Below, piece by piece: positions 2,862 to 25,534 of a DNA stretch of 25,534 nt; the stretch's first letter is position 1; each line of letters starts with the position of its first letter. This DNA comes from a virus (Duplodnaviria; Heunggongvirae; Uroviricota; Caudoviricetes), in the IMG/VR virus record IMGVR_UViG_2778261167_000011, positions 1 through 25,534 of that record, one strand, 5' to 3'. The translations under genes were made by a program, and so were the position numbers. Under the pieces are notes generated by a model. That model was not told where the DNA came from. It saw nothing but the letters and a program-made list of their open reading frames with translations, and searched no databases.

Positions 2862-3762
2862 CCGTTCCTCCGTTGGTTACGCTCCACTGCGTACATGATG
2901 CCGCCTGTGTTTTGTTCAGGACCACATCCGCCAGCGGAGAAGCCAGTTCCACACGTTGAACACCCTCAACATGCAGAGCAGCAAAGATGGCGCTACGGCG
3001 AATATCCCGACCAAGCCTCGTCTGGCTGGCAATGTACTTCTGCAGACTGGCTTTTGCCGCTGCCATTACCGGCTCTGCTTCCGGTCCCGGATAGAGAAAA
3101 ATGGTGGCTTCCACGCGATACGGGATGATTTCTGCGCTGCGAACCGTAAGACGGTCAGCCACCGGGCGGACGTTCTCACTGTTCAGAGCTTTTTCCACCA
3201 CGTCCAGCAGGTCTTTTTCTGCAGTTCCATCGCCTTCGCGGCTAAGGACAGTCAGCACCACCTCTGCAGGTGCCGGGCTGGTTGCACTGGCATCCGCCAC
3301 CCGACCGTCGGCGCTTCGGGCATGAAATTCATAAGCTGCAGTTGGCCCCGCAACAGAAAGCCCTTCAAAGGCTGCAGGCACACGCAGGCGCAACGCTTCA
3401 TCGCTTTCCATCACAGCTGCAACGGGCGGCACAGCATCATTATCAGCAGGCGTCACCGTCAGGCGTGTCACGTTGTAGTTGGCAGCGAGCTGGTCAAGAT
3501 CGCCGCCCATCGCGTAAGCCACCATCACCGCCTGCGCGGCTTCGTTAATACGCTGGCGCAGAAGCAACTCACGGTAAGCGTTCTCCTGCAACAATTTAGT
3601 GGCGGGTTCAGATTCCAGTTCCAGCGTGCGGATCACTGCTTCCTGCTCATCTTTCGGATGAAGCGCCACAAATTCTGCCTTGCGTTCGGCAAGCAGCGTC
3701 TCAAAGTCCGGCACATCCACAATCTGCGGTGCAGGCAACTGCGAAAGGTCAATCACTGCCAT
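2854..3762 (-). CDS. J: Baseplate assembly protein J (gp6-like wedge)
   Basis: Start placed at ATG 3762 (MAVIDLSQLPAP...) preceded by AGGAG at 7-nt spacing; overlaps the W stop by 14 bp. The track ORF extends to 3801 with a non-ATG start. Confidence 0.9.
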   Translation of the reverse strand: MAVIDLSQLPAPQIVDVPDFETLLAERKAEFVALHPKDEQEAVIRTLELESEPATKLLQENAYRELLLRQRINEAAQAVMVAYAMGGDLDQLAANYNVTRLTVTPADNDAVPPVAAVMESDEALRLRVPAAFEGLSVAGPTAAYEFHARSADGRVADASATSPAPAEVVLTVLSREGDGTAEKDLLDVVEKALNSENVRPVADRLTVRSAEIIPYRVEATIFLYPGPEAEPVMAAAKASLQKYIASQTRLGRDIRRSAIFAALHVEGVQRVELASPLADVVLNKTQAASCTQWSVTNGGTDE

Positions 3763-10701: not shown

Positions 10702-12468
10702 ATGAACACCACACTGACACCCGCAGATCTCGATCCCCGTCGGCAGGCCATGCTGCTGTACTTTCAGGGATACCGCGTAGCCCGCATTGCTGAAATGCTG
10801 GGCGAGAAAGTTGCAACCGTTCACAGCTGGAAAAAACGCGACAAGTGGGGTGACTATGGGCCGCTGGATCAGATGCAGCTCACCACCGCCGCACGCTACT
10901 GCCAGCTCATTATGAAGGAGCACAAAGAAGGGAAAGATTTCAAAGAGATTGACCTGCTGGCGCGCCAGTCGGAGCGCCATGCGCGGATCGGCAAGTTTAA
11001 CAATGGCGGCAACGAAGCCGACTTAAACCCTAACGTCGCCAACCGCAACAAAGGCCCGCGCCGTCAGCCGGAAAAGAACGTTTTCACCGATGAACAGATT
11101 GAGAAGCTGGAAGAAATCTTCCATTCCTCCATGTTCAACTACCAGCGCCACTGGTGGGAAGCCGGAAAAACCAACCGCATCCGCAACCTGCTGAAGTCAC
11201 GCCAGATCGGCGCGACCTTCTATTTTGCCCGTGAAGCCCTGATTGACGCCCTGCTGACCGGGCGTAACCAGATTTTCCTTTCCGCCAGCAAGGCACAGGC
11301 CCACGTCTTTAAGCAGTACATCATCGACTTCGCCAAAGAAGTGGAGGTGGAGCTGAAAGGCGATCCGATGGTGCTTCCTAACGGGGCCACGCTGTACTTC
11401 CTCGGCACCAATGCCCGCACGGCCCAGAGTTACCACGGCAACCTGTATCTGGATGAATATTTCTGGATACCGAAATTCCAGGAGCTGCGCAAAGTGGCTT
11501 CCGGTATGGCTATTCACAAGAAATGGCGACAGACCTATTTTTCCACGCCATCCAGTCTGACACACAGTGCTTATCCGTTCTGGTCCGGTGCGCTGTTCAA
11601 CCGTGGGCGCAACAGAGCCGATAAGGTGGACATCGACCTGTCCCACAGCAATCTGGCCCCCGGCCTGCTGTGCGCAGACGGGCAATACCGCCAGATAGTC
11701 ACCGTGGAAGATGCGGTGCGAGGCGGCTGTAACCTGTTCGACCTTGACCAGTTGCGCATGGAGTACAGCCCTGACGAATACCAGAACTTGCTGATGTGCG
11801 AGTTCGTGGACGATCTCGCGTCCGTGTTCCCGCTCAGCGAATTGCAGGCGTGCATGGTGGACAGCTGGGAAGTCTGGACCGACTTTCATGCACTGGCCCT
11901 GCGCCCGTTTGGCTGGCGCGAAGTGTGGATCGGTTATGACCCGGCAAAAGGTACGCAGAACGGCGACAGCGCCGGATGCGTGGTGGTGGCACCGCCAGCC
12001 GTGCCAGGCGGTAAGTTCCGCATTCTTGAGCGTCACCAGTGGCGCGGAATGGACTTTCGCGCCCAGGCTGACGCCATCAAAAAACTGACCGAACAGTACA
12101 ACGTGACCTATATCGGCATCGACTCAACCGGCGTTGGTCACGGGGTTTACGAGAACGTGAAAGCGTTTTTTCCTGCCGTCCGGGAGTTTGTCTACAACCC
12201 CAACGTTAAAAACGCCCTGGTACTCAAGGCCTACGACATTATCAGCCACCGCCGTCTTGAGTTTGACGCCGGGCACACCGACATTGCGCAGTCATTCATG
12301 GCAATCCGTCGCGCCACCACCGCCAGCGGCAACCGCCCGACCTATGAAGCCAGCCGCAGCGAAGAAGCCAGCCATGCCGATCTGGCCTGGGCAACAATGC
12401 ACGCACTGTTTAACGAACCACTGCAGGGCGAGTCCGCCAATACCAGCAATATTGTGGAGATTTTTTGA
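10702..12468 (+). CDS. P: Terminase large (ATPase) subunit (P2 gpP-like)
   Basis: 588-aa ORF divergent from O and followed by the portal gene with overlapping stop/start (TGATG). Confidence 0.93.
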   Translation: MNTTLTPADLDPRRQAMLLYFQGYRVARIAEMLGEKVATVHSWKKRDKWGDYGPLDQMQLTTAARYCQLIMKEHKEGKDFKEIDLLARQSERHARIGKFNNGGNEADLNPNVANRNKGPRRQPEKNVFTDEQIEKLEEIFHSSMFNYQRHWWEAGKTNRIRNLLKSRQIGATFYFAREALIDALLTGRNQIFLSASKAQAHVFKQYIIDFAKEVEVELKGDPMVLPNGATLYFLGTNARTAQSYHGNLYLDEYFWIPKFQELRKVASGMAIHKKWRQTYFSTPSSLTHSAYPFWSGALFNRGRNRADKVDIDLSHSNLAPGLLCADGQYRQIVTVEDAVRGGCNLFDLDQLRMEYSPDEYQNLLMCEFVDDLASVFPLSELQACMVDSWEVWTDFHALALRPFGWREVWIGYDPAKGTQNGDSAGCVVVAPPAVPGGKFRILERHQWRGMDFRAQADAIKKLTEQYNVTYIGIDSTGVGHGVYENVKAFFPAVREFVYNPNVKNALVLKAYDIISHRRLEFDAGHTDIAQSFMAIRRATTASGNRPTYEASRSEEASHADLAWATMHALFNEPLQGESANTSNIVEIF

Positions 12469-13493
12469 TGGGAAAGAGTAAGAAGAACCGCGCTGCGGCG
12501 ACGAAACAGATCCAGCATAAAAACCAGACTTCAGCCGAAGCATTCAGCTTCGGTGATCCCGTTCCTGTTCTGGACCGCCGCGAACTGCTGGACTATGTGG
12601 AATGCGTACAGATGGACCGTTGGTATGAGCCACCAGTGAGTTTCGACGGCCTGGCGCGAACCTTCCGCGCCGCCGTACACCACAGCTCACCGATTGCAGT
12701 AAAGTGCAACATTCTGACCAGCACCTATATCCCTCACCCGTTGCTCAGCCAGCAGGCTTTTTCACGTTTTGTGCAGGACTATCTGGTATTTGGTAATGCC
12801 TACCTGGAGAAACGCACGAACCGCTTCGGTGAAGTTATCGCCCTTGAACCTGCCCTGGCAAAATACACTCGACGCGGATTAGACCTGGATACCTACTGGT
12901 TTGTGCAATACGGTATGGCAACCCAGCCGTATCAGTTCACGAAAGGCAGCATCTTTCATCTGATGGAACCGGATATTAATCAGGAGATCTACGGCCTGCC
13001 TGGCTATCTTTCTGCTATTCCATCCGCTCTGCTCAACGAGTCCGCCACGCTGTTCCGCCGGAAGTATTACATTAACGGCAGTCATGCAGGCTTCATCATG
13101 TACATGACCGATGCCGCGCAAAACCAGGAGGATGTGAACAACCTCCGCAACGCAATGAAAAGCGCCAAAGGACCGGGTAACTTCCGCAACCTGTTTATGT
13201 ACTCGCCTAACGGCAAAAAGGATGGGCTTCAGATCATTCCTCTGTCAGAAGTCGCGGCGAAGGATGAGTTTCTGAATATCAAGAACGTGAGCCGGGACGA
13301 CATGATGGCGGCGCACCGCGTACCGCCGCAAATGATGGGGATTATGCCTAGCAATGTCGGGGGGTTTGGGGATGTAGAGAAAGCTAGTAAGGTATTTGTG
13401 CGGAATGAGCTTTTACCTTTGCAAAAATTGATGCAAGCGCTTAATTGTTGGCTGGATGAAAATATAATTACATTTAATAAATATATTTTGTAG
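12468..13493 (+). CDS. Q: Portal protein (P2 gpQ-like)
   Basis: Start placed at ATG 12468 overlapping the P stop (track ORF starts at a TTG at 12465); size and position match P2 Q. Confidence 0.93.
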   Translation: MGKSKKNRAAATKQIQHKNQTSAEAFSFGDPVPVLDRRELLDYVECVQMDRWYEPPVSFDGLARTFRAAVHHSSPIAVKCNILTSTYIPHPLLSQQAFSRFVQDYLVFGNAYLEKRTNRFGEVIALEPALAKYTRRGLDLDTYWFVQYGMATQPYQFTKGSIFHLMEPDINQEIYGLPGYLSAIPSALLNESATLFRRKYYINGSHAGFIMYMTDAAQNQEDVNNLRNAMKSAKGPGNFRNLFMYSPNGKKDGLQIIPLSEVAAKDEFLNIKNVSRDDMMAAHRVPPQMMGIMPSNVGGFGDVEKASKVFVRNELLPLQKLMQALNCWLDENIITFNKYIL

Positions 13494-13533: not shown

Positions 13534-15315
13534 TCATTTAAAACGTGTTGCAATATCTGCTGCTTCGATAACTGTTGCTTTTACGGTATTATCGCCAGCA
13601 CGATAATAAATATCCCCATCATAACTAGAATAAGATGCTAGAAGTGGAATTGTAATAACTATAACTCCATAACCATAAAAGTCATTATAGTCAATCAAAC
13701 TCACCACTTGTGATTTAAGAGGCTCACTCAAAGCAGATTTTTTCAACTCATCGCAAAAACGTCTATAATATTCTTCCATTGATATGCCGAGTTTAATAGC
13801 TTCTCTTTTAACACCAACAACACTTCTCTCACCAACTACATGTGCATCTATATCATCAAGCTCTTTTACTCTACTTGTATCACTTGGTTTATCTGTTACA
13901 CCAAGCAATAACTTACCAACTACACCGTTCTTGTTACCTTTACCGATGTTAGCAATAGCACAAATTGTGGAGAATATTTTCTCATGAATGCCATCATCAA
14001 TAGTTCGCTCTCCGCCTAACATCAACAAACCCTGTTTCAGTTCATAATTTGCAAGCTCTATTTCAGATCTTCGTAAAATATCCTCAATATCCACCGTATT
14101 GTGAGAATTATAGATATGACTGCTATCGGCGCTATCAATAAAGTTATCTTTAATCAAGCCTATGATAGAATTAATATTCTTTCTTCTCTCTTCCCCACCA
14201 GTAGCAGATCTTTTAGTATCTAGTCGAGTGACTATATTATTAAGATTGTCTTTTACACCTTTATAATTATTAATCTTCTTATTTTCTTTAATGAGTAATT
14301 CATGAAAAGCAATAAATAACACAGCAAATATGGCTGGGAAAGCATTTGTAGTACGTTTAGTAAAGATTAAATCCCTGAGTTTAATTTCACCGTCACTATT
14401 ACATACTTTTGTTATTTCCTGGATGCAGAATTTAAACTCTTCTGCAAATTTTCCTTCACCATAAACATTAATAGCAGAGCTAATACGACTATACTCTTCA
14501 TCTTCATTATTATAAATCTGATCAAGCGCATCTTTGGAACGATCTATTAACTTACCTCCAACAATACAAGCTGCTATATCTGCAATGCATTGCTCATCCA
14601 TACTGTCACGAAGGTCTGTTGAACGTAAGATCCCATGTTTTACCCAAAATACTTCTTCCGACTGAATTTGGTAACCATGTTTAGTTAGTGGCAAATCAAT
14701 GCTAATAGACGGCATTTGCTCTAAAAGCAATATGTCGTCAGATACATCCCCCCTGATAGAACAGGCAATATCCCTAACCATATTTGAAAATTTATTTTGT
14801 ATACCAGCCTGGCGCCTTTCTTGATCACTAAGTCTATGCCCGTATGTATTAATTCTATCAAAAACATCATTTATTTCGTTCTCAGTCGCATTACGCATAA
14901 TGGACATTGCAAGAGAATAATCCAATAACTGAGTAACCTCACGCTGACTTAAAAGATTATCAGCTTTCACTGCAACAAACTTACCTTCATCCGCTCGATT
15001 TTTCGCTGTGGGAAAAGCGTCCAGATTAAAACGTTTTCCATCAAGTGATTCATATCCTGTTTCGATGAAAGACATTATTGCATGTAATCTTTGTAGGCCA
15101 TCAATTATTTCATATGTGCCAGGATCATTTTCCCTTTCCGCGAGAAGAACTGCAGGAATTGGATATTTTTTTTGAATGGATTCAATTAATTTTTGTTTCT
15201 CTATTGCAGTCCAAACTAATTTTCGTTGATAACGTCTATTAACAAATATCTTACCTTCAGTAAACCATGAATAAATAGTTTGTATAGAAGTTGTTTGCGG
15301 TAATAGTTCAGCCAT
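13534..15315 (-). CDS. DUF262 / ParB-like nuclease-domain protein, 593 aa, AT-rich cargo gene
   Basis: ATG at 15315 with AAGGA RBS; N-terminal YEIIDGLQRL (DGQxR-type) motif characteristic of DUF262 as in GmrSD/BrxU/SspE/DndB N-domains; C-terminal ~350 aa unassigned. Composition is much more AT-rich than the flanking phage genes. Confidence 0.8.
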   Translation of the reverse strand: MAELLPQTTSIQTIYSWFTEGKIFVNRRYQRKLVWTAIEKQKLIESIQKKYPIPAVLLAERENDPGTYEIIDGLQRLHAIMSFIETGYESLDGKRFNLDAFPTAKNRADEGKFVAVKADNLLSQREVTQLLDYSLAMSIMRNATENEINDVFDRINTYGHRLSDQERRQAGIQNKFSNMVRDIACSIRGDVSDDILLLEQMPSISIDLPLTKHGYQIQSEEVFWVKHGILRSTDLRDSMDEQCIADIAACIVGGKLIDRSKDALDQIYNNEDEEYSRISSAINVYGEGKFAEEFKFCIQEITKVCNSDGEIKLRDLIFTKRTTNAFPAIFAVLFIAFHELLIKENKKINNYKGVKDNLNNIVTRLDTKRSATGGEERRKNINSIIGLIKDNFIDSADSSHIYNSHNTVDIEDILRRSEIELANYELKQGLLMLGGERTIDDGIHEKIFSTICAIANIGKGNKNGVVGKLLLGVTDKPSDTSRVKELDDIDAHVVGERSVVGVKREAIKLGISMEEYYRRFCDELKKSALSEPLKSQVVSLIDYNDFYGYGVIVITIPLLASYSSYDGDIYYRAGDNTVKATVIEAADIATRFK

Positions 15316-15468: not shown

Positions 15469-15999
15469 TGCCCGCTTTATGTAGTAGTTTTCATGCACCT
15501 GCATGACATGAGCAAAAGCCCGCCAGTTCTGGCATGTCTTAGCCAAACCGATCCTCAAACGATCATGCGAACTCATGCAGCATAGACATGCATGACATGA
15601 AAATCGGTCAAACCTTGAAACCAGTCATAAATATGAGCCAGCTTAATACACACTAAATAGCTGCGTCTAATACTGCTACACCTGCCGTTTACTGACATGT
15701 GGCATGTCGCGTAAGGACAACATACTGTAGGCCAGATACAGCAGGATCAGGCGAAGAAAACGGCCCCACGCCTTACCCAGCAAGAGCCAAGGGCCAAGGG
15801 CTAACCGAAAGTGGAACACTATTCCGCGCAGTTATTTAGTGTCAGCTCTTTTGAGCTAAAATCAAGTTTCAACATGAGGGTCTGTGCAGGCTTTCTCATC
15901 CCGCTAATTTATACAGCACACCTATATATGGCTATGAGTTTGTCATGCCCGCTAATCCTGTTAGGATTAGCCTTGTTTTTTTACGATTGGGATAGGGAT

Positions 16000-16806
16000 A
16001 TGAAGAAATTAACTGGCGTAATTGCTTTTGCTCTGCTGCTTACTGCTTGTGACAAACCGAAGATCGATGCATCAAGCGATCAGTCGATGAAAGAGTCCAT
16101 TCAAAAAGTAAGAGAGTCCTTACCTGCAGATAAAAAAGCTCAGTTCGATGATGCAGTTAAAGTCGTTGCCTTTAGCCAAATCAACATGAGAGAGCTAATG
16201 CAGGCTGGAACGTCTTCTGGGGACGTCTACGAAACAAAAATTAAGTCAGCGTTGGAAGGTAAAACTGGTGATGAGGTTATAAATTACGCACAAACTATTC
16301 GCCTTGAGCGTGAGAAGAGAGAGAAAGAACAGGCTCTGCAAGAAATAAAAGAACTGGAAGCCAAACAAACCTCTGCAACACAGGCTGCGGAAAAAATGAA
16401 AGCCTTCAAGGTCGAACGTTCCCGTTTTTATTTCCAGAAAGAGGATTACGGCAATGATCAGCCAATTCTGGATATTAGCGTTGAAAACGGAACAGACAAA
16501 GCGGTTGCCAGAGTATTCTTCAAAGGAGTTATTGCCAGCCCAGGAAGAAGCGTCCCTTGGTTCTCTGACGTCTTCAACTATAAAATTTCTGGAGGTCTGG
16601 AACCAGGTGAGAAAGCCAACTGGAAATTAGCCCCTAATAGATACTCTGATTGGGGAAAACTTAAAGTTCCGGCTGATGCTATATTTACCGTCACAGTCAT
16701 TGGCCTTGAAGACGCAGATGGGAAATCGATCTATGGTGACGCCGAGTTTTCAGAACGCGATGCTGACAGACTGAATCAACTTAGAGATAAGTACCTTTCT
16801 AAATAA
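16000..16806 (+). CDS. Lipoprotein of unknown function (cargo gene)
   Basis: Start placed at ATG 16000 (MKKLTGVIAFALLLTACDK: signal peptide plus lipobox LLTAC). The track ORF extends upstream to a GTG at 15811. Charged coiled-coil-like middle region (EREKREKEQALQEIKELEAKQ). Confidence 0.75.
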   Translation: MKKLTGVIAFALLLTACDKPKIDASSDQSMKESIQKVRESLPADKKAQFDDAVKVVAFSQINMRELMQAGTSSGDVYETKIKSALEGKTGDEVINYAQTIRLEREKREKEQALQEIKELEAKQTSATQAAEKMKAFKVERSRFYFQKEDYGNDQPILDISVENGTDKAVARVFFKGVIASPGRSVPWFSDVFNYKISGGLEPGEKANWKLAPNRYSDWGKLKVPADAIFTVTVIGLEDADGKSIYGDAEFSERDADRLNQLRDKYLSK

Positions 16807-16914
16807 TCAAAATTAAAGCTACTTCAGCATAGTCCCTGAGAATATATATCAGGGACTACCAAATCACGGCAGATACCCCTTAGTTAAATAATGCTAAACG
16901 CTTAGAAAGAGACC

Positions 16915-17214
16915 ATGAAACGTATAACTTTCTCCTTTACGTTAGTAGCAATCATCATAGCCTTAGCTGGATGTGCTTTGCCAGATAAAGACGGCGACTT
17001 CGGAGCTTATGTTCATGCCTGTCAGCAATATGCATACGGAAAATCCTATGCCTTTGAGAATAGAGACTTCGCGTATAAGGTCTGTAAGGACGCGGCGAAA
17101 CTGTGGAGTGACGAAGTTCCTGGCTATATCATCAGGCAAATTCAACTACATCCTGAAATACCCAGCGAAGAAATTAAATATGCAGCCATGGCCGGCTCTT
17201 TGGGGAACAACTAA
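16915..17214 (+). CDS. Small lipoprotein of unknown function (cargo gene)
   Basis: 99 aa; MKRITFSFTLVAIIIALAGCALPDKDG (signal peptide plus lipobox LAGC); followed by an intrinsic terminator. Confidence 0.7.
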   Translation: MKRITFSFTLVAIIIALAGCALPDKDGDFGAYVHACQQYAYGKSYAFENRDFAYKVCKDAAKLWSDEVPGYIIRQIQLHPEIPSEEIKYAAMAGSLGNN

Positions 17215-17281: not shown

Positions 17282-17470
17282 TCAACTGATTACATCCATC
17301 GACCTACTGTATTCATGGCTTCGAATTTTCGCCATCAACTCATCAGTCAATTCAGAAACCCACTGCAGAGCTAGCCCCTTCTCTTCATCACTACACTCAC
17401 TAGCCGCTACAAGCTTAAGAAAAAAATCAATGCGCTGGAGCTTCAAAGACTCCAAAAAATAGTCCTGCAT
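17282..17470 (-). CDS. Small hypothetical protein (62 aa) downstream of A
   Basis: ATG at 17470 with strong RBS (AGGAGGAAAG) and an AT-rich promoter-like region upstream (17480-17600). The track ORF is longer (to 17572) but its 5' part looks non-coding. Confidence 0.45.
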   Translation of the reverse strand: MQDYFLESLKLQRIDFFLKLVAASECSDEEKGLALQWVSELTDELMAKIRSHEYSRSMDVIS

Positions 17471-17623
17471 CTTTCCTCCTATAACACCATACGCAATACT
17501 GTACATATAACCACTGTTTATATTTACAGTATATAATAATCTTACTGATGTAAAACGTTTTTTTACGTTCATCAGCCTGATATGCCTGGTATTATTAAGA
17601 GCACGAATTGTTAACCCGCGTGA

Positions 17624-20035
17624 TTAATACATGTTCCGCCACTTATCATCTTCCTGCAAACGCTGGTTCCGATAGAAGATACGCAGGCCTGCTCCTGACG
17701 GAATACTGCCACCGCAAAGGAGCAAATCGACCTCTTTCTCGCTGCCATCAAATCCTCTGGACTTCAGTTCATAGACGAGCTGCTGACGCTGATACTCTGT
17801 AATTCGCTGTTTGTAGTCTTTACGCCGTTTCGGTTTAACCAGGCGCAATCTTGCTGCCAGTTCCCGGCGCTCTTTTTTGCTCATACTGTGCAGGTAATCG
17901 TGCAATTCCTTGTCATCCATGCAGGTAATGTCCGTTCTGGTATCCCCATCTGCTGATTCATCTTTCTCATGTTGGTTCAAATTTTCAGCAAGGGGACAGT
18001 TATTGCCACGAGTCCAAGGGGCGCAAGCGCCCTGGTCGGCTGCCGCCTCCTGAACGTCAACGGCCTTACGGGCCTTTTTCCACTTCATCGCGTGCGTGCA
18101 AATCTTGCCCTCTATAATCGGGGACCAGATGCCATAGATACGGATACCGTGATCGCCGTAAGCGCTCGGTTCGTCGTTAAGCTCATAAGCCGTGCGGACA
18201 AGGTGATGTTTGCGGGGAACCAGTACACCGCCCTGCTTCATGATGTAAGTGGCAAAGCAACCCGCATCTGCAGCTGCCAGTACCGCATCCAGACGCGGAT
18301 TATCCAGTACCGGTGCACCCGCTTTGCGTTCGCCCTGCACTCTCGCCGCCTGACCAGCCAGCAAGCGCAGCTCACGGTATGCCTGACGCCCCGGGATACC
18401 AAAGAAACGGAATTGCTGGACACGGTGCAGTGACGCCCAGGCACAGACATGCTCGGCGCTGTCACGCAATGATCTGCCGGTTTCTTTGCTGATTTCTTTA
18501 GCCAGCCCGCGCCCGTCGATGTTCTTACTGATGTATTTGGCGATGTAGCTGGTCGGTGTACCCTTGCGCGGGTTGATTAGCTCGGACTTGAAGCGCGGGC
18601 CGGTATTGGTGCCCAGTTCCTCGCGGTCTTCACGGATGGCGAACTTACGCAGCAGCGCGGTGATGGAACGACGGTCTTTTTTGCGCATAAAGCACAGAAG
18701 ATGCCAGTGCACGGTGCCGTCATGGTGCGGCTCTGCAACGCGGACGCCGTACCAGCGCAATCCGGCCTTGTGCATGGCCTTGCGGAAAGCGGCGAACGTA
18801 TCAACCAGATAATCACTGCTCTGCCGGACAGTGGCACTGATCCACTTCGGATTAGGTCTGCCGTTGTTGAGGGTTGCGTGGAAGCGTGACGGGCAGGTGA
18901 TGGTATAGAACACCGCGCAGTCTCCGCGCATTTCCGCTATCAGTTCCAGCCCCTTAACACAGGTCATCATTTCATTACGGCGGTGTGCCGGGTTACTGTT
19001 GCTGGCGTTCACTACATCTTCCATGTCCAGCGTGTCGCCGTCTTCATTGACCAGCTCATGCGAGCGGAAGAACTCCAACGATTTGCGACGCTGCTCGCGT
19101 TTGTGTATCACGGCTTCATAACTGACATACGGGGACGCTTTCTTGTTGACCAGACAGACGGCGCGCATCTGCTCCTCCCGCCACTCGCAGCGCATCTGCC
19201 ACAATTTGCGATACCACCAGTCCGCGCACAGCATGCGCGCCAGCGACGGTGGGATCAGTTCATAAGGCACTGGCTTGCGACGGCGCTTTTTGCGGCGCAA
19301 CTTCTCAAAGGCAGGCGGAATGACCTCAAGGCGCATGGCTTCTGCAGCAACCCTTTCCCACGCCTGGCGGATTTCTTCTGGTTTAACATCGTCACTGACA
19401 AACAGATCACCGCAAGCCGCATCAAGACACATGCTCATATGTGCCGCAACCAGCGTGGAAAGGCGCTTGACCTGATCCTGATTCATTTCAGGAAGTACCA
19501 GCAATCCCTCCAGCCCGTCCTGGCTCGCCATGAATCGGAAAGATGCAGACACCTGGCTGTCACGCACTCGCTCCAGCCGCTCAAAACAAGGCCTGATTGT
19601 TTCGCGCAGATAACGGGAATAAGCTTTAGCCCTGCCTAGGCTATTGAAGTATTTAATCCGCTCTAACAGAGGCTTGCTGATATGGGCAGGCATGGCGCTT
19701 ACATCGGCAATAATCACCAAATCGGGATTAACGCGCTGCTGCTCGCGGGCCATTCTGGCATGGCTAATCAGCCGATCCTGCTCTATTTCACGCTGGACAG
19801 GATCGCGGGATTCATTGAAGAAATAACGTTCCCACACCTCATCACTCAGCGCCTCACGGCGCAGATGCTCCTGCTCGTTATCTGCAGCGTACAGAGTGAT
19901 GAGGTTTGAAAGCGCAGACTCAGGCGCAAATTCCGCCGGGTCCAAATACGGGTTAACCGCTTTTTTTGGGGTATTCCATGGAAAGGCCACGGCGGTCACA
20001 ATCGGACCGCCTTTATCTTTTAGTAGCTCAGACAT
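17624..20035 (-). CDS. A: Rolling-circle replication initiator endonuclease (P2 gpA-like)
   Basis: HUH motif (TVHWHLLCF) and active-site tyrosine motif YIAKYISK; ~800 aa. Start placed at ATG 20035 with GGAG RBS; the track ORF begins at a GTG at 20065. Confidence 0.9.
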
Positions 20036-20054
20036 CACTGGAAGACTCCAAAGC

Positions 20055-20282
20055 TCACAAAGCACCTCGGGTGTAGTGCATCCCTTTCAGCTCTGCTATT
20101 TCCTTACAGGTGACGCAGAGATCACAGCCCGGCACTGCAGCACGGCGCTGTTCCGGGATGACGATTCCGCAACACTCACACTCCAGAGAAGAAGCCCCAG
20201 TCTTTCGGCTGCGAGCTGTTTGGATATGGCGCTGACGTTCTTCTTCAACGCGCTGTTGCACGAGGTCCATTGAATCAGCCAT
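20055..20282 (-). CDS. TraR/DksA-family C4 zinc-finger protein
   Basis: 75 aa containing [25 protein letters not shown] (a four-cysteine motif); sits just upstream of A like the DksA-like ORFs of P2-type early operons. Confidence 0.8.
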
Positions 20283-20924: not shown

Positions 20925-21003
20925 AAATTCCCCCACTGGTCACTTACTACTCCTTCTCTGATATGATTTTCCGATGCAACGAGATAACTCAGAGGGTGTA
21001 CCA

Positions 21004-21252
21004 ATGTTGAACCTGGTTGAGAAGGAACGGATCGAGCAGCTTGAAAATGAAATTGCGCGACTGCGAGAGGATGTTGAGATGCAACAAATCCTGCTGTCTG
21101 GCTTACTACACAGTGTGCTACGAGGAGAATCATCGAATCAGTCAGCATTTTTAAACATCCTTCGTGAAGAATTAAACAAATTGCCGCCAGGCTCACTCAA
21201 ACGTCAGGAATTCACCTACAAACTTCAGGAGCTAATAGAGCGTTACCGATAA
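21004..21252 (+). CDS. Hypothetical coiled-coil protein (82 aa), antisense to the early operon
   Basis: ATG at 21004 with GAGGG RBS at good spacing; heptad-like sequence ERIEQLENEIARLREDVEMQQ; 3' end overlaps the convergent 74-aa ORF. Confidence 0.45.
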   Translation: MLNLVEKERIEQLENEIARLREDVEMQQILLSGLLHSVLRGESSNQSAFLNILREELNKLPPGSLKRQEFTYKLQELIERYR

Positions 21253-21638: not shown

Positions 21639-22148
21639 TCAGATCAGACCGAACGAAGCACCGAGGCCCGTCACGGTATCTACTGCGCTTGCCATCGCTG
21701 GGTTAGCCTGCAAACGCGCCTGTAATGAAACTGCAGTCAGTGCCATCAAACGCGTAACTGAATTAATGCTGCTAATTACATCGCGGCGGCCTGCGGTAGT
21801 TTTCACTTCACCAGAGACGGCACCTGCAGCAACACGACCTATTTCTGCGGTAGCGCTCATGACGTAATGCGGCAATTTCTCTTTTGCAACTTCGTTTACC
21901 GGAACACATGGCAAGCAATGAATTTGCGCCAGAAACCCATCAACTAATGTGGAGTCTTCGGTGAGATCGGTTAGCAGCCATATGTCTGGCGCCGTGAGCT
22001 GGTGCGGTTGCTCCGGGTTGAGCTTATTGCGCAGGGTTTGGACGTTCATGCCTGCAAGTTCTGCCAGCTTCGCCATGTTGTGCCGTAAAGCAAAAGCCCG
22101 ACAGGCATCATGGAAATGCGGATGTTTTGATATGCGATAGTCAAACAT
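21639..22148 (-). CDS. cII: Phage regulatory protein CII (186 CII-like)
   Basis: 169 aa. The N-terminal region (HNMAKLAELAGMNVQTLRNKLNPEQPHQLT) matches my recollection of the 186 CII family HTH region; located right after apl in the lytic operon. Confidence 0.75.
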   Translation of the reverse strand: MFDYRISKHPHFHDACRAFALRHNMAKLAELAGMNVQTLRNKLNPEQPHQLTAPDIWLLTDLTEDSTLVDGFLAQIHCLPCVPVNEVAKEKLPHYVMSATAEIGRVAAGAVSGEVKTTAGRRDVISSINSVTRLMALTAVSLQARLQANPAMASAVDTVTGLGASFGLI

Positions 22149-22180: not shown

Positions 22181-22402
22181 CTAGTTGATAGTCACATTGC
22201 AATCAGAAAGAGCATCGACCGTCATCGCAGCGATGTTAATCATCACTTTTTCACGCTTTTTGTCCTTGCGTAGGCGATGACGAAGCAATCGCCCATCCGC
22301 AAGCATGTCGTTGATTGTGTCGATAGATAACCCAGTGAGTTCACTATATCTTTCAATAGTGACGTGGGGGGTGATGAGAGTGATTGAAATGTTAGGTCTC
22401 AT
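22181..22402 (-). CDS. apl: Apl/Cox-like excisionase and transcriptional regulator
   Basis: Start placed at ATG 22402 (MRPNISITL...; track ORF begins at a TTG at 22426); small HTH protein (ERYSELTGLSIDTINDMLADGRL), first gene of the lytic operon and divergent from cI. Confidence 0.7.
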   Translation of the reverse strand: MRPNISITLITPHVTIERYSELTGLSIDTINDMLADGRLLRHRLRKDKKREKVMINIAAMTVDALSDCNVTIN

Positions 22403-22527
22403 GATGCAACATTCCTCGTTTAGCAATGATTAATCAGGATGAATACTGATCGTTTGTATTTTGTGAACACGATAAACATACGATCACATCATGAAATCGT
22501 CAAGATAAAAGTTCACCTGGAGTGACC
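22403..22527. promoter_or_regulatory. Immunity switch region with candidate pR and operator
   Basis: Minus strand shows -35 TTGACG (plus 22498-22503), a 17-bp spacer and -10 TATGTT (plus 22475-22480), reading toward apl. Inverted repeat TGATCGTTTGT (22447-22457) / ACATACGATCA (22476-22486), 10 of 11 matching, overlaps the -10. Confidence 0.5.
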
Positions 22528-23094
22528 ATGAATTTGGAAAAAGGCGGCCGTGGTGCCATAGAGCGTATGGTTGAAGCCTATGGCTTCAAGACAAGACAAG
22601 CTTTGTGCGACCATTTAGGGATTTCAAAGAGTACTTTGGCGACACGCTATATGCGCGACTCCTTCCCTGCGGAATGGGTTATTCAGTGCGCCTTAGAGAC
22701 AGGTACGTCATTGAGCTGGCTGACTAATGGCTACGGAATCAAAGAGGGTTCACAAAATGAAAACACCAAAGAACTTCCGCTAAAAATTCTCTATGATGGT
22801 GAACTTTGTCCTGAAGGGTCTTATGTTTTTGATGTAAATTTTCTACCTAAAGCTCTAAAAAATCCGATGGTTGTTGTTGTTGATAGTTCCAAATACATTT
22901 GTGATATTGATTATGATGATGTCCGTGATGGAAAATGGATTGTTAATATTGATGGTGAAATATCAATGAGAACAATTACACGCTTGCCTGGCAGGCGCCT
23001 TCATGTGGAAGGTGGTATATCTCCTTTCGAATGCGCGTTAGAAGATATAATAATGATCGCAAAAATCGTGATGGCATGTCTTGAATATAAATAA
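22528..23094 (+). CDS. cI: CI-type immunity repressor (186 CI-like)
   Basis: Start placed at ATG 22528 with GGAG RBS (track ORF begins at a GTG at 22522); N-terminal HTH (RQALCDHLGISKSTLATRYMRD); divergent from apl; ~188 aa. Confidence 0.8.
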   Translation: MNLEKGGRGAIERMVEAYGFKTRQALCDHLGISKSTLATRYMRDSFPAEWVIQCALETGTSLSWLTNGYGIKEGSQNENTKELPLKILYDGELCPEGSYVFDVNFLPKALKNPMVVVVDSSKYICDIDYDDVRDGKWIVNIDGEISMRTITRLPGRRLHVEGGISPFECALEDIIMIAKIVMACLEYK

Positions 23095-23140: not shown

Positions 23141-24397
23141 ATGGATGAATGTATAGTCGAGATGTTATTAATAGTGAATAAAGATACTTCCTTTGGACGC
23201 TCTCCGTCAGCCTATAAAAAAATAATTGAGGCCAGTGAGGAAGTCATATTTTCACCAAAAGAATTAAAATTCAAAGAACAGTCATTTAAATATGATATAT
23301 CAGAATATGGAAGCAATAAAGAAACTATCTCTGTAAAATTAACACTAAACGACGTTAGTGAAGATAATTTAATCACTTTCTCAAGATTAACCAGACTCTT
23401 CAAAAAAATATCTAGCGAAAGTAATTTAGGTAGCACTCAAATTATTTGGGATGATATAAGCAAATATTACTCAATTCAGGCTTATCCATTAATCCATGAA
23501 ATTGAAAACTTAATGAGAAAATTAATAACAAAATTCATGATACATAACGTTGGATTGTCTTGGACAAAAGATTCAGTGCCGAAGGAATTTTCAGAAGCAT
23601 TGAAAAAATCCGAAAAAAACACAGAATATAATGAACATAATTTAATGTATCAAGTTGACTTTATTGAACTTTCTGACTTTATATTCAAATCTTACCGAGA
23701 GATTGAAATAACAGATTTGATCCGAAAATTAACCCCGCTTGAATTTAAAGACATTAATGCTGATATATTCTCAGAATTGAAAAAAATCGTTCCCAGAACA
23801 AACTGGGAAAAATTCTTTGAGTCAAACATCGAAGCAAATGCTGACACTATAATAAAAAATTGGAGTATTTTATATCGACTCAGATGCAAAGTTGCTCATA
23901 ATAGAGATTTTACTAAACAAGATCTTGATGAAGTAATTCGCCTTACAAATACACTGAGTCCAATACTAAAAAAAGCAATTGAAAAAACCGAGACTCTGAC
24001 TATTGATCCGAAGGAAAAAGAAGAATTAACATCCCAGTTTGAGAATGAGTTTTCTAACAATACTAAAAGTGATGAAGAATTATTCAAAGACAGAGTGCTT
24101 GAATTATATCTACAAATAAGACATTTATATCAACTTACACATTCAAACAGTGAAAATATTAATAGCTATTACAAAGTAATACAAACAACATTCCAAAATG
24201 TTTTGCATGACGAAAAGTTCAATGCCGAAGACGTAATGAATTTAATTAATATCTCAACTAATGATGATGTTCTGAGAAAATGTGATAATTTCGAGATACA
24301 TGATTTAATGAATATTTGCCATTCTATTAAAGAACTTGTTAATTTTAAAATATCAAGTTTTGAAGCTGGGTCAAATGAAGCAGTTAAAAATGAATGA
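23141..24397 (+). CDS. AT-rich 418-aa hypothetical protein with an Rx4H (HEPN-like) motif; candidate abortive-infection/defence cargo
   Basis: ATG at 23141 with GAGGAG RBS, 46 bp after the cI stop; Lys/Asn/Glu-rich; RLRCKVAHNRD matches the HEPN Rx4-6H signature; followed by an intrinsic terminator. Confidence 0.8.
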   Translation: MDECIVEMLLIVNKDTSFGRSPSAYKKIIEASEEVIFSPKELKFKEQSFKYDISEYGSNKETISVKLTLNDVSEDNLITFSRLTRLFKKISSESNLGSTQIIWDDISKYYSIQAYPLIHEIENLMRKLITKFMIHNVGLSWTKDSVPKEFSEALKKSEKNTEYNEHNLMYQVDFIELSDFIFKSYREIEITDLIRKLTPLEFKDINADIFSELKKIVPRTNWEKFFESNIEANADTIIKNWSILYRLRCKVAHNRDFTKQDLDEVIRLTNTLSPILKKAIEKTETLTIDPKEKEELTSQFENEFSNNTKSDEELFKDRVLELYLQIRHLYQLTHSNSENINSYYKVIQTTFQNVLHDEKFNAEDVMNLINISTNDDVLRKCDNFEIHDLMNICHSIKELVNFKISSFEAGSNEAVKNE

Positions 24398-24456
24398 TAA
24401 TGTTTTATCTAATAGTTATCAAACATTGACCACTGTTCAAACATACAGTTAAATTT

Positions 24457-24481
24457 AGCCCTCAGACATGAGGGCTTTTTT
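24457..24481 (+). terminator. Intrinsic terminator whose 3' arm contains the integrase RBS
   Basis: AGCCCTC-agacat-GAGGGCT followed by TTTTTT, abutting the int ATG at 24482. Confidence 0.65.
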
Positions 24482-25534
24482 ATGGCAGTACGAAAACTCG
24501 ACACAGGTAAATGGATATGCGAATGCTACCCCGCAGGTCGCAACGGACGCCGCATGCGTAGGCAATTCGCCACTAAAGGCGAGGCTCTGGCTTTCGAACG
24601 TCACACTATGGAAGAAACAGAAGCAAAACCCTGGCTAGGCGAATCGGTAGACCGTCGGACTCTAAAAGACGTCGTTGAACTCTGGTTCAAGCTGCACGGC
24701 AAATCTCTGACTGCTGGCGAGCATGTTTACGACAAGCTGATCCTGATGGTCGATGCTCTCGGAAATCCCCTCGCCACTGATTTAACATCCAAAATGTTCG
24801 CGCACTATCGCGATAAACGCCTGACAGGTGAAATCTACTTTAGCGAAAAATGGAAGAAAGGAGCCAGCCCGGTAACTATCAATCTTGAGCAAAGCTATAT
24901 GAGCGGAGTGTTTAGCGAGTTGGCACGACTTGGAGAATGGACTGCACCAAACCCACTGGAGAACATGCGCAAATTCACCATCGCAGAAAAGGAGATGGCC
25001 TGGCTGACTCATGAACAAATCACTGAGCTTTTGTGCGACTGCAAACGCCAAAGCCCCCTGCTCGCTCTGGTTGTCAAAATCTGTCTGAGTACCGGTGCCC
25101 GCTGGCGCGAAGCTGTAAATCTGACTCGTTCTCAGGTTACAAAATACCGGATCACATTTGTCAGGACTAAGGGCAAAAAGAACCGCAGCATTCCGATCAG
25201 CAAAGAGTTGTATGAGGAAATTATTGCCCTGGACGGCTTCAAGTTCTTTACTGACTGCTACTTCCAGTTTTTATCTGTGATGGAGAAAACTTCTATCGTG
25301 CTGCCGCGCGGTCAGCTTACCCACGTTCTGCGCCATACGTTTGCAGCACACTTTATGATGTCAGGCGGTAACATCCTTGCCCTACAGAAAATCCTTGGTC
25401 ACCACGACATAAAAATGACCATGCGCTATGCTCACCTAGCCCCTGATCACCTTGAAACAGCGCTGCGCTTTAACCCATTGGCAACCCTGCCAAATGGCGA
25501 CAAAGTGGCGGCAGCGGTTGGCATTGCACCGTAA
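24482..25534 (+). CDS. int: Tyrosine site-specific integrase (P2/186 Int family)
   Basis: 350 aa; catalytic signatures ARWREA (Arg), HVLRHTFAAH (HxxR box) and MTMRYAHL (tyrosine nucleophile); stop codon is the last three bases of the window. Confidence 0.93.
   Translation: MAVRKLDTGKWICECYPAGRNGRRMRRQFATKGEALAFERHTMEETEAKPWLGESVDRRTLKDVVELWFKLHGKSLTAGEHVYDKLILMVDALGNPLATDLTSKMFAHYRDKRLTGEIYFSEKWKKGASPVTINLEQSYMSGVFSELARLGEWTAPNPLENMRKFTIAEKEMAWLTHEQITELLCDCKRQSPLLALVVKICLSTGARWREAVNLTRSQVTKYRITFVRTKGKKNRSIPISKELYEEIIALDGFKFFTDCYFQFLSVMEKTSIVLPRGQLTHVLRHTFAAHFMMSGGNILALQKILGHHDIKMTMRYAHLAPDHLETALRFNPLATLPNGDKVAAAVGIAP

What the first reader, a model, noticed from the sequence alone, without database searches (positions are those of the whole stretch)
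24457..24484. Integrase RBS embedded in the terminator that ends the cI/cargo transcript
The hairpin AGCCCTC-agacat-GAGGGCT plus TTTTTT ends directly at the int ATG. The only Shine-Dalgarno-like sequence for int (GAGGG) is the 3' arm of that hairpin. Int translation could therefore depend on whether the hairpin forms, which would decouple int from repressor expression.
Basis: inference. Interest (0 to 1): 0.4.

Follow-up and report, generated by a model that had tools for sequence, protein, structure and literature searches.

The report
Insulated, SOS-controlled phage integrase promoter
The hairpin in front of this prophage's integrase gene is real and conserved, and it most likely shields the integrase from transcripts coming from the repressor and cargo genes upstream, while the integrase appears to have its own DNA-damage-responsive promoter that starts inside the hairpin and so escapes it.

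Summary
AGCCCTC(A)/GACA/(T)GAGGGCT at 24457-24476 folds at -14.3 kcal/mol (z -4.8). T5 follows, then the int ATG at 24482. The only Shine-Dalgarno sequence (GAGGG, 24470-24474) lies in the 3' arm.

The window is a 186-like (P2-family) prophage with a variable cargo gene between cI and int. The 85 nt before int are conserved across related prophages that carry unrelated cargoes.

- a 186-CII-type inverted repeat, ATGTTTT-N13-CAAACAT (24400-24426), identical to this phage's own pE site;
- a -35/-10 pair, TTGACC-18-TAAATT;
- a LexA box in the spacer, CACTGTTCAAACATACAGTT (24431-24450).

Both the promoter geometry and the 186 pE analogy put the transcription start near 24461, inside the 5' arm.

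Best model: transcripts from cI/cargo carry the full hairpin, so they terminate or have a masked ribosome site. Transcripts from int's own promoter lack the 5' arm and are translated.

More than 10 different arm sequences keep the pairing between the SD and the arm. Only some lineages keep the T-run. LexA/CII binding and the start site are inferred, not shown.

Verdict: a new variant of known mechanisms (lambda pI, IS10/IS200 read-through protection, LexA-controlled intI).

The parts
22522..23094 (+). cI repressor gene, first gene of the lysogenic (rightward in this window) transcript
   Evidence: Pfam Phage_CI_repr 1e-30 and Phage_CI_C 9e-25. Same gene order as 186.
22122..22148 (+). pE-type CII binding site at the cII start codon: ATGTTTTGATATGCGATAGTCAAACAT
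   Evidence: Positional and sequence homologue of the annotated 186 CII site GATGTTTGGAAACCTGAAAATCAAACAT. One of only two pattern hits in the window.
23141..24397 (+). AT-rich cargo ORF (418 aa) in the variable slot between cI and int
   Evidence: GC 0.27-0.32 against about 0.5 in the flanks. Weak HEPN_Swt1 match (E 5.5e-4, below the Pfam cut-off) and PADLOC PDC-M34B 4e-7. Related prophages carry other genes in this slot.
24400..24426 (+). CII-type inverted repeat ATGTTTT-N13-CAAACAT, abutting the -35 of the int promoter
   Evidence: Half-sites and spacing are identical to the window's pE site. The pattern has 2 hits in the window against 0.07 expected. ATGTWT-N14/15-AWACAT is perfect in 51 and has one mismatch in 31 of 90 distinct related upstream segments; shuffles give 0% and 0.8%. 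CII binding is inferred.
24426..24431 (+). -35 hexamer TTGACC of the proposed int promoter (Pint)
   Evidence: Promoter scan: TTGACC-18-TAAATT, 9 of 12. TTGAC is kept in most relatives. Family B has TTGACA-17-AAAAAT, 10 of 12.
24431..24450 (.). LexA (SOS) box CACTGTTCAAACATACAGTT filling the promoter spacer
   Evidence: PWM score 19.7 bits (recalled E. coli sites score 12.8-26.8). It is one of only 3 hits of 10 bits or more in 25.5 kb. The best hit in shuffled windows averages 11.3 and never exceeds 19.8. HI 6.0, within the 0.7-9.6 range of the training sites. CTG-N10-CAG is invariant while the centre varies. The box is present in every locus whose Int is 69% or more identical and absent at 56% or less.
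24450..24455 (+). -10 hexamer TAAATT (alternative: TTAAAT at 24449-24454 with a 17-nt spacer)
   Evidence: An A/T-rich hexamer follows CAGT directly in all lineages.
24459..24464 (+). Predicted transcription start zone of Pint (best guess 24461), inside the 5' arm
   Evidence: Inference from two rules. First, a start lies about 7 nt after the -10. Second, in 186 the last T of CAAACAT lies 35 nt upstream of the annotated pE +1 (coordinates). The same spacing from T24426 gives 24461. Not mapped experimentally.
24457..24463 (+). 5' arm of the hairpin (anti-SD, AGCCCTC)
   Evidence: It covaries with the 3' arm.
24470..24476 (+). 3' arm of the hairpin, GAGGGCT, containing int's only Shine-Dalgarno sequence (GAGGG, 24470-24474)
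   Evidence: P(unpaired) of the SD is 0.01-0.02 when sequence upstream of the hairpin is included.
24477..24481 (+). T-run after the stem (U-tract of the intrinsic terminator; also the SD-to-ATG spacer)
   Evidence: A run of 5 or more T's is present in 40 of 65 distinct leaders and absent in 25.
24482..25534 (+). int, tyrosine integrase (350 aa); the window ends at its stop codon
   Evidence: Pfam Int_N 2e-31 and Phage_integrase 6e-21. Annotated as integrase in E. coli and phage records.
17497..17531 (-). Tandem overlapping LexA boxes upstream of a small ORF (ATG at 17470, minus strand), in the position of 186 p95/tum
   Evidence: PWM 15.7 and 24.5 bits; sequence. In 186, p95/tum with its LexA site lies downstream of gene A. 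These are the only other LexA-box hits in the window. The ORF itself has no Pfam match.

Best explanation
The 85 nt between the cargo stop codon and the int ATG form a compact control region with two jobs.

(1) Insulation. RNA that enters from the cI/cargo side contains both arms of the hairpin. In this lineage the hairpin plus U-tract acts as an intrinsic terminator. Any RNA that reads through has int's only Shine-Dalgarno sequence locked in a -14 kcal/mol stem, so int is not translated from the lysogenic or cargo transcript.

(2) Separate expression. int has its own sigma-70 promoter, TTGACC-18-TAAATT. The spacer of that promoter is a LexA box, and the -35 abuts a 186-CII-type inverted repeat. 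RNA polymerase starting there begins at about 24461, inside the 5' arm. That RNA lacks the anti-SD, cannot form the terminator, and carries a short leader of about 21 nt with an accessible ribosome site.

int would then be off in a quiet lysogen, where LexA is bound, CII is absent and upstream transcripts are blocked. It would turn on when LexA is cleaved, and/or when CII is made after infection or after derepression of the lytic promoter. That would synchronise Int with the excisionase Apl.

What is shown: the hairpin; the SD inside it; its conservation and covariation; the presence, conservation and statistical significance of the LexA-box-like and CII-site-like motifs; and their fixed geometry.

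What is inferred: LexA and CII binding, promoter activity, the start site, and termination efficiency.
For: Hairpin
- It folds at -14.3 kcal/mol, z -4.79, and 0 of 200 shuffles fold as well.
- It is conserved in front of int behind unrelated cargo genes: KAP NTPase, ATP-dependent nuclease, DUF4041/SNIPE and hypothetical proteins.

Covariation
- AGCCCTC/GAGGGCT becomes AGTCCTC/GAGGACT in L001, L007, L128 and L137.
- ATGCTCTCC/GGAGGGCAT becomes ATGTTCTCC/GGAGGACAT in L106.
- Unrelated arm pairs also occur: CCCCCTT/AAGGGGG, TCTCCTTC/GGAGGAGA, TCCCCTTC/GGAGGGGA, ACTCTCCTAA/TTAGGAGAGT and TAGCCC/GGGCTA. All of them mask the SD.
- Native leaders fold at -12.0 kcal/mol on average, against -8.4 for chimeras carrying a foreign 5' half.
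- Hairpin z-scores are -3 to -7.5 in most module loci. They are about 0 in most int homologues without the module, including 186 and P2; one such homologue reaches -2.6.

LexA box
- It scores 19.7 bits and HI 6.0.
- The only other hits in the window are the tandem boxes at the tum-like promoter.
- Every module locus found by protein homology has a box of 15-27 bits ending 27-32 nt before the ATG. The 11 more distant loci score below 3 bits.
- CTG and CAG are invariant while the centre varies.

CII site
- The pattern hits only pE and this site in the window, against 0.07 expected.
- It is conserved in 82 of 90 distinct relatives with at most 1 mismatch, against under 1% of shuffles.
- The 186 CII site is annotated in the GenBank record.

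Geometry
- In all hairpin families the 5' arm occupies roughly positions +1 to +8 after the -10 hexamer (my reading of the leaders).
- The rule of -10 plus 7 nt and the 186 pE spacing (35 nt from CAAACAT to +1) both place the start in the last bases of the 5' arm.

Accessibility
- RNA from 24461 or 24464 has no significant structure (z +0.3 and +0.9).
- P(unpaired SD) rises from 0.02 to 0.25-0.46.

Contrast
- In 186 the cI stop overlaps the int start and none of these elements exist.
Against: - No experimental start site, 3' end or binding data exist for this locus, and none was found in the searchable literature.
- The -10 is only 4 of 6. In the Yersinia/Serratia lineages (TAAATA or TTAAAT) it fails the scan's strict criteria.
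- A start at 24461 still leaves CUCA, which can pair with UGAG (4 bp). The SD would be more open, not fully free.
- Int is needed to establish lysogeny in cells where LexA is intact. A LexA box in the spacer would oppose CII activation, so the logic of the two inputs is unresolved.
- At many loci the CII-like half-sites are ATGTAT/ATACAT with a gap 1 bp shorter, while the pE site of the same phage stays TGTTTG/CAAACA. Recognition by CII is therefore not certain.
- A few loci have weakened hairpins (L022, L028, L034, L043).
- The LexA PWM and HI were built from sites recalled from the literature, not from a curated file.
- Chimeric leaders still fold fairly well. A median of 8.5% of chimeras match the native energy, because all anti-SD sequences resemble each other.
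Confidence: 0.55

Rival explanations
1. The hairpin is a plain intrinsic terminator for the cI/cargo operon. Its overlap with the SD is a by-product of tight packing. int is made from the fraction of upstream transcripts that read through, as in 186. This is the core of the first reader's picture.
For: The anatomy is a canonical hairpin plus U-tract. Sub-threshold Rfam hits are all to families that end in terminators. In 186, int is part of the lysogenic operon.
Against: At least five lineages keep an SD-masking hairpin but have no T-run, and no other terminator was detected within 300 nt. The hairpin's position is fixed relative to the -10 and the ATG, not relative to the cargo stop codon, which lies 71-145 nt upstream. 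A -14 kcal/mol stem over the only SD would nearly abolish translation of read-through RNA. The conserved LexA box, -35 and CII-like repeat would have no explanation.
Confidence: 0.1
2. int has its own promoter, but the RNA starts upstream of the hairpin. The hairpin is then a built-in attenuator and translational damper of int's own mRNA. This would resemble the SD-sequestering stem of IS200 tnpA: Int stays very low at all times, or needs an unknown factor to open the stem.
For: SD masking is the universally conserved feature. IS200 combines a terminator with an SD-sequestering 5'-UTR stem (PMC4513863). The start site has not been mapped.
Against: The best -35/-10 pair ends at 24455, only 1 nt before the stem, so a start upstream of 24457 would need a different promoter, and none is seen on the + strand in 24398-24456. 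The alternative -10, TACAGT at 24444-24449, lies only 12 nt from the conserved TTGACC. In families A and B such an RNA would terminate itself 20 nt after its start. The 186 pE spacing also predicts 24461.
Confidence: 0.2
3. The conserved upstream palindromes are not LexA or CII sites. They would instead bind another phage or host protein, or they are conserved only as the fixed homology flank for cassette exchange at the cargo hotspot. The hairpin would be the only regulatory element.
For: No binding data exist. The half-sites of the distal repeat often differ from the pE site of the same phage. The region is the constant 3' border of a variable slot.
Against: The conservation pattern is motif-like, not uniform: CTG and CAG and the two hexamers stay fixed while the intervening bases vary freely. 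The LexA PWM and HI values fall within the range of bona fide sites, and the only other hits in the window are at the tum-like promoter. The window's repeat matches its own pE site exactly in half-sites and spacing.
Confidence: 0.1

Closest known systems
Phage lambda int control: CII-activated pI promoter and sib retroregulation
   Same: int has a promoter of its own that responds to the lysogeny-establishment activator CII (lambda CII activating integrase expression is stated in PMC7708051). The fate of int mRNA depends on which promoter produced it.
   Different: In lambda the discrimination is at the 3' end (an RNase III site at sib; my own knowledge). Here it would be at the 5' end, through an anti-SD/terminator arm that own-promoter transcripts lack. 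The 186-type CII is unrelated to lambda CII. Lambda pI has no LexA operator.
Protection of IS transposase genes from outside transcription (IS10 'fold-back inhibition', IS50, IS200 left-end terminator plus SD-sequestering stem)
   Same: A recombinase gene is shielded from read-through by a terminator and/or a stem that masks its SD. In IS10 the element's own promoter starts inside the inverted repeat, so only foreign transcripts fold back (Davis, Simons and Kleckner 1985; my own knowledge). The IS200 arrangement is described in PMC4513863.
   Different: This is a phage integrase, not a transposase. One hairpin serves both as terminator and as SD mask. The promoter carries LexA and CII-type sites. 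The upstream transcripts are the phage's own repressor and cargo operon.
LexA-controlled integron integrase (intI) promoters
   Same: A tyrosine recombinase gene has a LexA box overlapping its promoter, which couples recombination to the SOS response (Guerin et al. 2009, my own knowledge; PMC3948777 appeared).
   Different: Integrons have no SD-masking terminator and no phage activator site. The function here is prophage excision and integration.
Coliphage 186 lysogenic operon (pL/pE - cI - int) and p95-tum SOS operon
   Same: Same phage family and gene order, a CII-activated pE, and LexA-controlled tum. The window has both pE-site and tum-box equivalents.
   Different: In 186 the cI stop and the int start overlap by 1 nt. 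There is no cargo, no int promoter, no LexA box near int and no hairpin. P2 likewise has a free GGAGG and no box.

Membership tests
Intrinsic (Rho-independent) terminator | G+C-rich stem of 5 or more bp with a short loop | tested here: met
   7-8 bp, 5 G-C pairs, loop of 4-6 nt, -14.3 kcal/mol, z -4.8.
Intrinsic (Rho-independent) terminator | U-tract immediately 3' of the stem | tested here: met
   TTTTTT at 24476-24481. Met in 40 of 65 distinct leaders of relatives and not met in 25.
Intrinsic (Rho-independent) terminator | RNA 3' ends map to the U-tract; termination measured | not testable with these tools
   Needs Term-seq, 3' RACE or in vitro transcription.
LexA (SOS) operator of Gammaproteobacteria | CTG-N10-CAG palindrome with an A/T-rich centre, scoring like known sites | tested here: met
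   CACTGTTCAAACATACAGTT scores 19.7 bits and HI 6.0, within the range of the recalled E. coli sites. The annotated 186 p95 site scores 26.9 bits.
LexA (SOS) operator of Gammaproteobacteria | Overlaps a promoter and is conserved at orthologous positions | tested here: met
   It fills the -35/-10 spacer. It is present in every module locus (Int 69% or more identical) with invariant CTG and CAG, and absent from more distant int genes.
LexA (SOS) operator of Gammaproteobacteria | LexA binding and SOS induction of the downstream gene | not testable with these tools
   Needs EMSA or footprinting, and expression in lexA mutants or after mitomycin C.
186-type CII-activated promoter (pE-like) | Inverted 7-bp half-sites ATGTTTG/CAAACAT with 13 bp between them | tested here: met
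   ATGTTTT-N13-CAAACAT at 24400-24426 equals the window's pE site and the annotated 186 site.
186-type CII-activated promoter (pE-like) | Proximal half-site ends about 35 nt upstream of the start; poor -35 that needs the activator | tested here: inconclusive
   The spacing fits the predicted -10 and start (24461). However, the -35 here is good (TTGACC), relatives vary by 1 bp in spacing, and many use ATGTAT/ATACAT half-sites.
Read-through protection by SD sequestration (IS10/IS200 type) | The SD lies in a stem whose partner is upstream, and the pairing is maintained in evolution | tested here: met
   P(unpaired SD) is 0.00-0.20 in most module loci. Compensatory changes and more than 10 independent arm pairs are seen.
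Read-through protection by SD sequestration (IS10/IS200 type) | The gene's own transcript starts inside or after the upstream arm | not testable with these tools
   Predicted from the promoter geometry only.
Known cis-regulatory RNA family (riboswitch, leader, thermosensor) | Match to an Rfam covariance model at its gathering score | tested here: not met
   The best hit is RyhB at 25 bits against a gathering score of 55. All hits are sub-threshold and terminator-driven.

The most novel reading that the evidence does not exclude
A large clade of 186-like prophages has replaced the ancestral cI-int translational coupling with a self-contained int control cassette. The cassette combines a promoter that integrates the phage's CII activator with the host's LexA repressor, and a transcription start placed inside a terminator/anti-SD hairpin. 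The same 20 nt then kill every transcript arriving from upstream but are absent from int's own mRNA. This universal insulator would be what lets the cI-int gap act as a plug-and-play slot for defence and other cargo genes without disturbing prophage stability. It would also make Int supply for excision directly SOS-dependent.
Probability: 0.4. Interest if true: 0.65.

Novelty: new variant of a known kind. Interest (0 to 1): 0.55.

Why it matters
In the reference phages P2 and 186, int is taught as part of the repressor operon. If this model holds, a widespread sister lineage controls int quite differently. That lineage is found in about 2.5% of complete E. coli genomes and in many Klebsiella, Enterobacter, Citrobacter, Serratia and Yersinia.

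In this lineage int would be silenced in the lysogen by three layers: LexA, absence of CII, and a terminator/SD mask. It would be released by DNA damage.

The model explains how a variable cargo slot can sit between cI and int without coupling cargo expression to recombinase expression. It also gives a compact natural part of about 85 nt that insulates against read-through while allowing expression from its own promoter.

It predicts that prophage excision and curing rates, and hence mobility of the defence cargo, respond directly to SOS-inducing antibiotics. Each step can be tested with standard reporter fusions and start-site mapping.

Tried and rejected
- Rfam scan of 24300-24600: no family reached its gathering score. 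The weak hits (RyhB, Phe, Trp and rnk leaders) reflect only the terminator shape.
- P2 and 186 as models: neither has the hairpin, the box or the repeat. The element is not a general P2-family feature.
- Alternative -10, TACAGT, inside the LexA box: rejected, because it lies only 12 nt from the conserved TTGACC and no -35 is at the right distance.
- IHF site: TATCAAACATTG fits WATCAANNNNTTR in the window but is not conserved in relatives (my reading).
- Minus-strand promoter (TTGATA-17-TATCAT, 24422-24394): it lies in the non-conserved part and does not overlap the box.
- Separate upstream terminator in the lineages without a T-run: none detected within 300 nt in L033, L035 and L059.
- The MAFFT alignment A2 puts the divergent hairpin families out of register, so I did not use the count of structure pairs on it. 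I compared families directly and ran a native-versus-chimera folding test instead. That test is conservative and only moderately discriminating.
- Covariation between the Pint repeat and the pE site of the same phage: not seen. The pE site is constrained by the cII coding sequence.
- Literature searches for a LexA- or CII-controlled int in P2/186-like phages found nothing. Subscription-only papers are not covered.
- One literature call and one find call failed on term length.
Full report
**1. Observation**

The sequence at 24457-24484 is AGCCCTC-AGACAT-GAGGGCT-TTTTT-ATG. The terminator scan reports it as 8 pairs, 5 of them G-C, with a 4-nt loop and the tail TTTTTATGGC.

Folded as RNA, 24451-24484 gives -14.3 kcal/mol. 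Dinucleotide shuffles average -4.05, so z is -4.79, and none of 200 shuffles folds as well. The hairpin is also present in the MFE and centroid structures of the 121-123-nt context.

GAGGG (24470-24474) is the only SD-like sequence before the ATG at 24482, and it lies in the 3' arm. The ATG is the conserved start of this integrase family.

**2. Context**

The window is the right end of a 186-like (P2-family) prophage. The relevant genes are:

| Gene | Coordinates | Strand |
|---|---|---|
| replication gene A | 17624-20065 | - |
| cII | 21639-22148 | - |
| apl-like gene | 22181-22426 | - |
| cI | 22522-23094 | + |
| AT-rich 418-aa cargo ORF | 23141-24397 | + |
| int | 24482-25534 | + |

In phage 186 itself the cI stop and the int start overlap by one base, and nothing lies between them.

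Prophages with 84-89% identical DNA around the int start sit next to rcdA/ybjJ in 134 of 5426 complete E. coli genomes. They carry different genes between cI and int: KAP/P-loop NTPases, an ATP-dependent nuclease, DUF4041/SNIPE proteins and hypothetical proteins.

Despite these different cargoes, the roughly 65-85 nt between the cargo stop codon and the int ATG are conserved (alignment A1). The hairpin therefore belongs to the constant int-side border of a variable slot. It is not part of any one cargo.

**3.

A protein-based scan of one genome per species returned 55 loci. I read the 110 nt before int in about 40 of them that hold the int start. This showed a strongly conserved block immediately upstream of the hairpin: ACATTGAC(C)-ACTG-N10-CAGT-TAAAT.

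*Promoter.* TTGACC-18-TAAATT (24426-24455) is the only + strand promoter-like match in the intergenic region. A sister family has TTGACA-17-AAAAAT, 10 of 12.

*LexA box.* The promoter spacer is CACTGTTCAAACATACAGTT (24431-24450), which matches CTG-N10-CAG.
- I built a weight matrix from E. coli LexA sites recalled from the literature (my own knowledge). The box scores 19.7 bits; the training sites score 12.8-26.8, and the annotated 186 p95 LexA site scores 26.9.
- The whole 25.5-kb window has only two other hits of 10 bits or more. These are tandem boxes at 17497 and 17512, upstream of a small ORF in the position of 186 tum.
- Shuffled windows give a best score of 11.3 on average and never above 19.8.
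- A heterology-index calculation gives 6.0, inside the 0.7-9.6 range of the training sites.
- Every locus with the conserved upstream block has a box of 15-27 bits ending 27-32 nt before the ATG. All of these have an Int at least 69% identical to the window's. Eleven loci at 56% identity or less score below 3 bits.
- In alignment A2 the CTG and CAGT columns are invariant while the centre varies freely. That is the signature of a LexA operator.

*CII-type repeat.* Further upstream lies ATGTTTT-N13-CAAACAT (24400-24426), whose last T is the first base of the -35.
- It is identical in half-sites and spacing to the window's own pE site at the cII start codon (22122-22148). It also matches the CII binding site annotated in the 186 GenBank record, GATGTTTGGAAACCTGAAAATCAAACAT.
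- The pattern ATGTTT-N15-AAACAT, allowing one mismatch, hits exactly these two places in the window, against 0.07 expected.
- Among 90 distinct upstream segments from relatives, ATGTWT-N14/15-AWACAT is perfect in 51 and has one mismatch in 31. Shuffles give 0% and 0.8%.

**4. Geometry and predicted start**

In 186 the last T of CAAACAT lies 35 nt upstream of the annotated pE +1 (coordinates, sequence). The same spacing from T24426 gives 24461. The rule of about 7 nt after the -10 gives 24461-24462. Both positions lie inside the 5' arm (24457-24463).

Counting in the same way puts the start on the last bases of the 5' arm in two other hairpin families: family B (ATGCTTTCC/GGAGGGCAT) and the Yersinia family (CCCCCTT/AAGGGGG). 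This counting is my own reading of the sequences.

RNA beginning at 24461 or 24464 has no significant structure (z +0.3 and +0.9). The computed probability that the SD is unpaired rises from 0.02 in read-through RNA to 0.25-0.46.

**5. Is the hairpin selected, and for what?**

A pattern scan of IMG/VR required only the LexA-box half-sites and the int start, so it was blind to the leader sequence. Together with the loci fetched earlier, it gave 156 matches with 64 distinct leaders.

Almost all of them fold into a hairpin whose 3' arm contains the SD. The arm sequences differ:

| 5' arm | 3' arm | Note |
|---|---|---|
| AGCCCTC | GAGGGCT | family A, the window |
| AGTCCTC | GAGGACT | compensatory change within family A |
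| ATGCTCTCC | GGAGGGCAT | family B |
| ATGTTCTCC | GGAGGACAT | compensatory change within family B |
| CCCCCTT | AAGGGGG | Yersinia lineage |
| TCTCCTTC | GGAGGAGA | |
| TCCCCTTC | GGAGGGGA | |
| ACTCTCCTAA | TTAGGAGAGT | L029 |
| TAGCCC | GGGCTA | L033 |

Other variants also occur.

- Hairpin z-scores are -3 to -7.5 in most module loci. They are about 0 in most int genes that lack the module, including 186 and P2; one such locus (L039) reaches -2.6.
- Native leaders fold better than chimeras made with a foreign 5' half (-12.0 against -8.4 kcal/mol). The test is conservative because all anti-SD sequences resemble each other.
- A T-run of 5 or more follows the stem in 40 of 65 distinct leaders, which are the two large families. 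It is absent in 25, and no other terminator was detected nearby in those lineages.

The universal, selected feature is therefore SD masking by an arm that sits exactly at the promoter's start region. Termination is an added function in the lineage to which the window belongs.

**6. Model**

Transcripts from pL, pE or cargo promoters carry the full hairpin. In this lineage most should stop at the U-tract, and the rest cannot initiate int translation. Transcripts from int's own promoter lack the 5' arm and can be translated.

The promoter appears to take two inputs: repression by LexA and activation by the phage's CII. In a stable lysogen all three locks are on. After DNA damage LexA is cleaved. 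That also derepresses the tum-like gene, which in 186 encodes the antirepressor that inactivates CI (annotation). The lytic promoter then makes Apl and CII, so Int would appear together with the excisionase.

How enough Int is made during lysogenisation of a cell with intact LexA is unresolved. Basal expression, or CII-assisted competition with LexA, are the obvious options. This is the weakest point of the model.

**7. Comparison with known systems**

- *Lambda.* The closest functional analogue on the phage side is lambda. There int has a CII-activated promoter (PMC7708051), and the fate of int mRNA depends on the promoter of origin.
- *Insertion sequences.* On the mechanism side the closest analogue is the protection of IS transposase genes from outside transcription. 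IS200 has a left-end terminator plus an SD-sequestering stem (PMC4513863). IS10 has fold-back inhibition, in which the element's own start lies inside the inverted repeat (my own knowledge).
- *Integrons.* LexA control of a tyrosine recombinase gene is known for integron intI (my own knowledge).
- *P2 hotspots.* A recent survey lists the integrase-primase interval as a minor defence hotspot of P2-like phages but does not discuss its regulation (PMC13586616).

I found no description of a LexA- or CII-controlled int, or of this hairpin arrangement, in P2/186-like phages. The search cannot see most subscription journals.

**8. Verdict**

The likely switch, however, is the choice of promoter, through a start site inside the hairpin. 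It is not folding dynamics within one transcript.

The arrangement is a new variant built from known parts. Binding, promoter activity, the start site and termination all remain to be shown.

Noticed in passing
window 17470-17531 (minus strand): Two overlapping LexA boxes, TACTGTAAATATAAACAGTG and CAGTGGTTATATGTACAGTA (24.5 and 15.7 bits), sit upstream of a 62-aa ORF (ATG at 17470) just downstream of gene A. This is the position of 186 p95/tum. The ORF has no Pfam hit.
   Followed up: partly
window 13534-15315 (minus strand): A 593-aa ORF next to the portal-like and terminase-like ORFs (12465-13493 and 10702-12468), on the side toward gene A, matches PADLOC NsnA (E 8e-31) and PD-T4-2_A (2e-18). 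It is probably a defence gene in the known P2 hotspot between gpQ and gpA.
   Followed up: partly
window 15811-17214 (+): A 331-aa ORF with a DUF6694 domain (5.5e-22) and a 99-aa ORF with a lipoprotein-like N-terminus lie between the NsnA-like gene and the tum-like gene. They are further cargo of unknown function.
   Followed up: partly
window 23141-24397 (+): The 418-aa cI-int cargo has only weak similarity to Swt1-like HEPN (E 5.5e-4, below the Pfam cut-off) and to PADLOC candidate PDC-M34B (4e-7). Its GC is 27-32% against about 50% in the flanks. An ORF of the same length (418 aa) follows a 90% identical cI in Enterobacter sp. ENT03 (L034).
   Followed up: partly
L034 4968-5000; also L022 and L028: A few relatives have weakened hairpins. 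L034 has a G-A mismatch plus a G-U pair (-7.9 kcal/mol), L022 has an A-C mismatch, and L028 has a deletion that leaves 4-5 bp. These may be decaying prophages or tolerated variants.
   Followed up: no
L019 and L020 (L020 4606-5000): In these two loci the cI-int gap is only 395 nt. In L020 its largest ORF is a 63-aa ORF with a signal-peptide-like N-terminus. The full LexA box, repeat and hairpin are still present, so the control module does not depend on a large cargo.
   Followed up: partly
L014 (Klebsiella phage 4LV2017) 3557 vs 3629: The deposited int CDS starts 72 nt downstream of the ATG that is conserved across the family. The conserved start pattern (ATGGCAGTACGAAAA-like) is at 3557, so the annotation is probably truncated.
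   Followed up: no
related loci, 46 nt upstream of the LexA box: The CII-like repeat upstream of int often uses ATGTAT/ATACAT half-sites and a gap 1 bp shorter. The pE site of the same phage keeps TGTTTG/CAAACA, which is fixed by the cII coding sequence. It is unexplained whether CII tolerates both or whether another protein reads the int site.
   Followed up: partly
window 20974-21252 (+): A 92-aa ORF is oriented against the early operon, between the DUF5347-like and fil-like genes. A + strand hypothetical gene lies at the equivalent place in E. coli KO11FL (L003 404-652).
   Followed up: no
window 24468-24638 (+): A 56-aa ORF starts at the ATG inside the hairpin (acATGagg), in another frame and overlapping the int start. 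It has no SD, and the ATG is conserved only as part of family A's loop and arm. It is probably not a gene.
   Followed up: no
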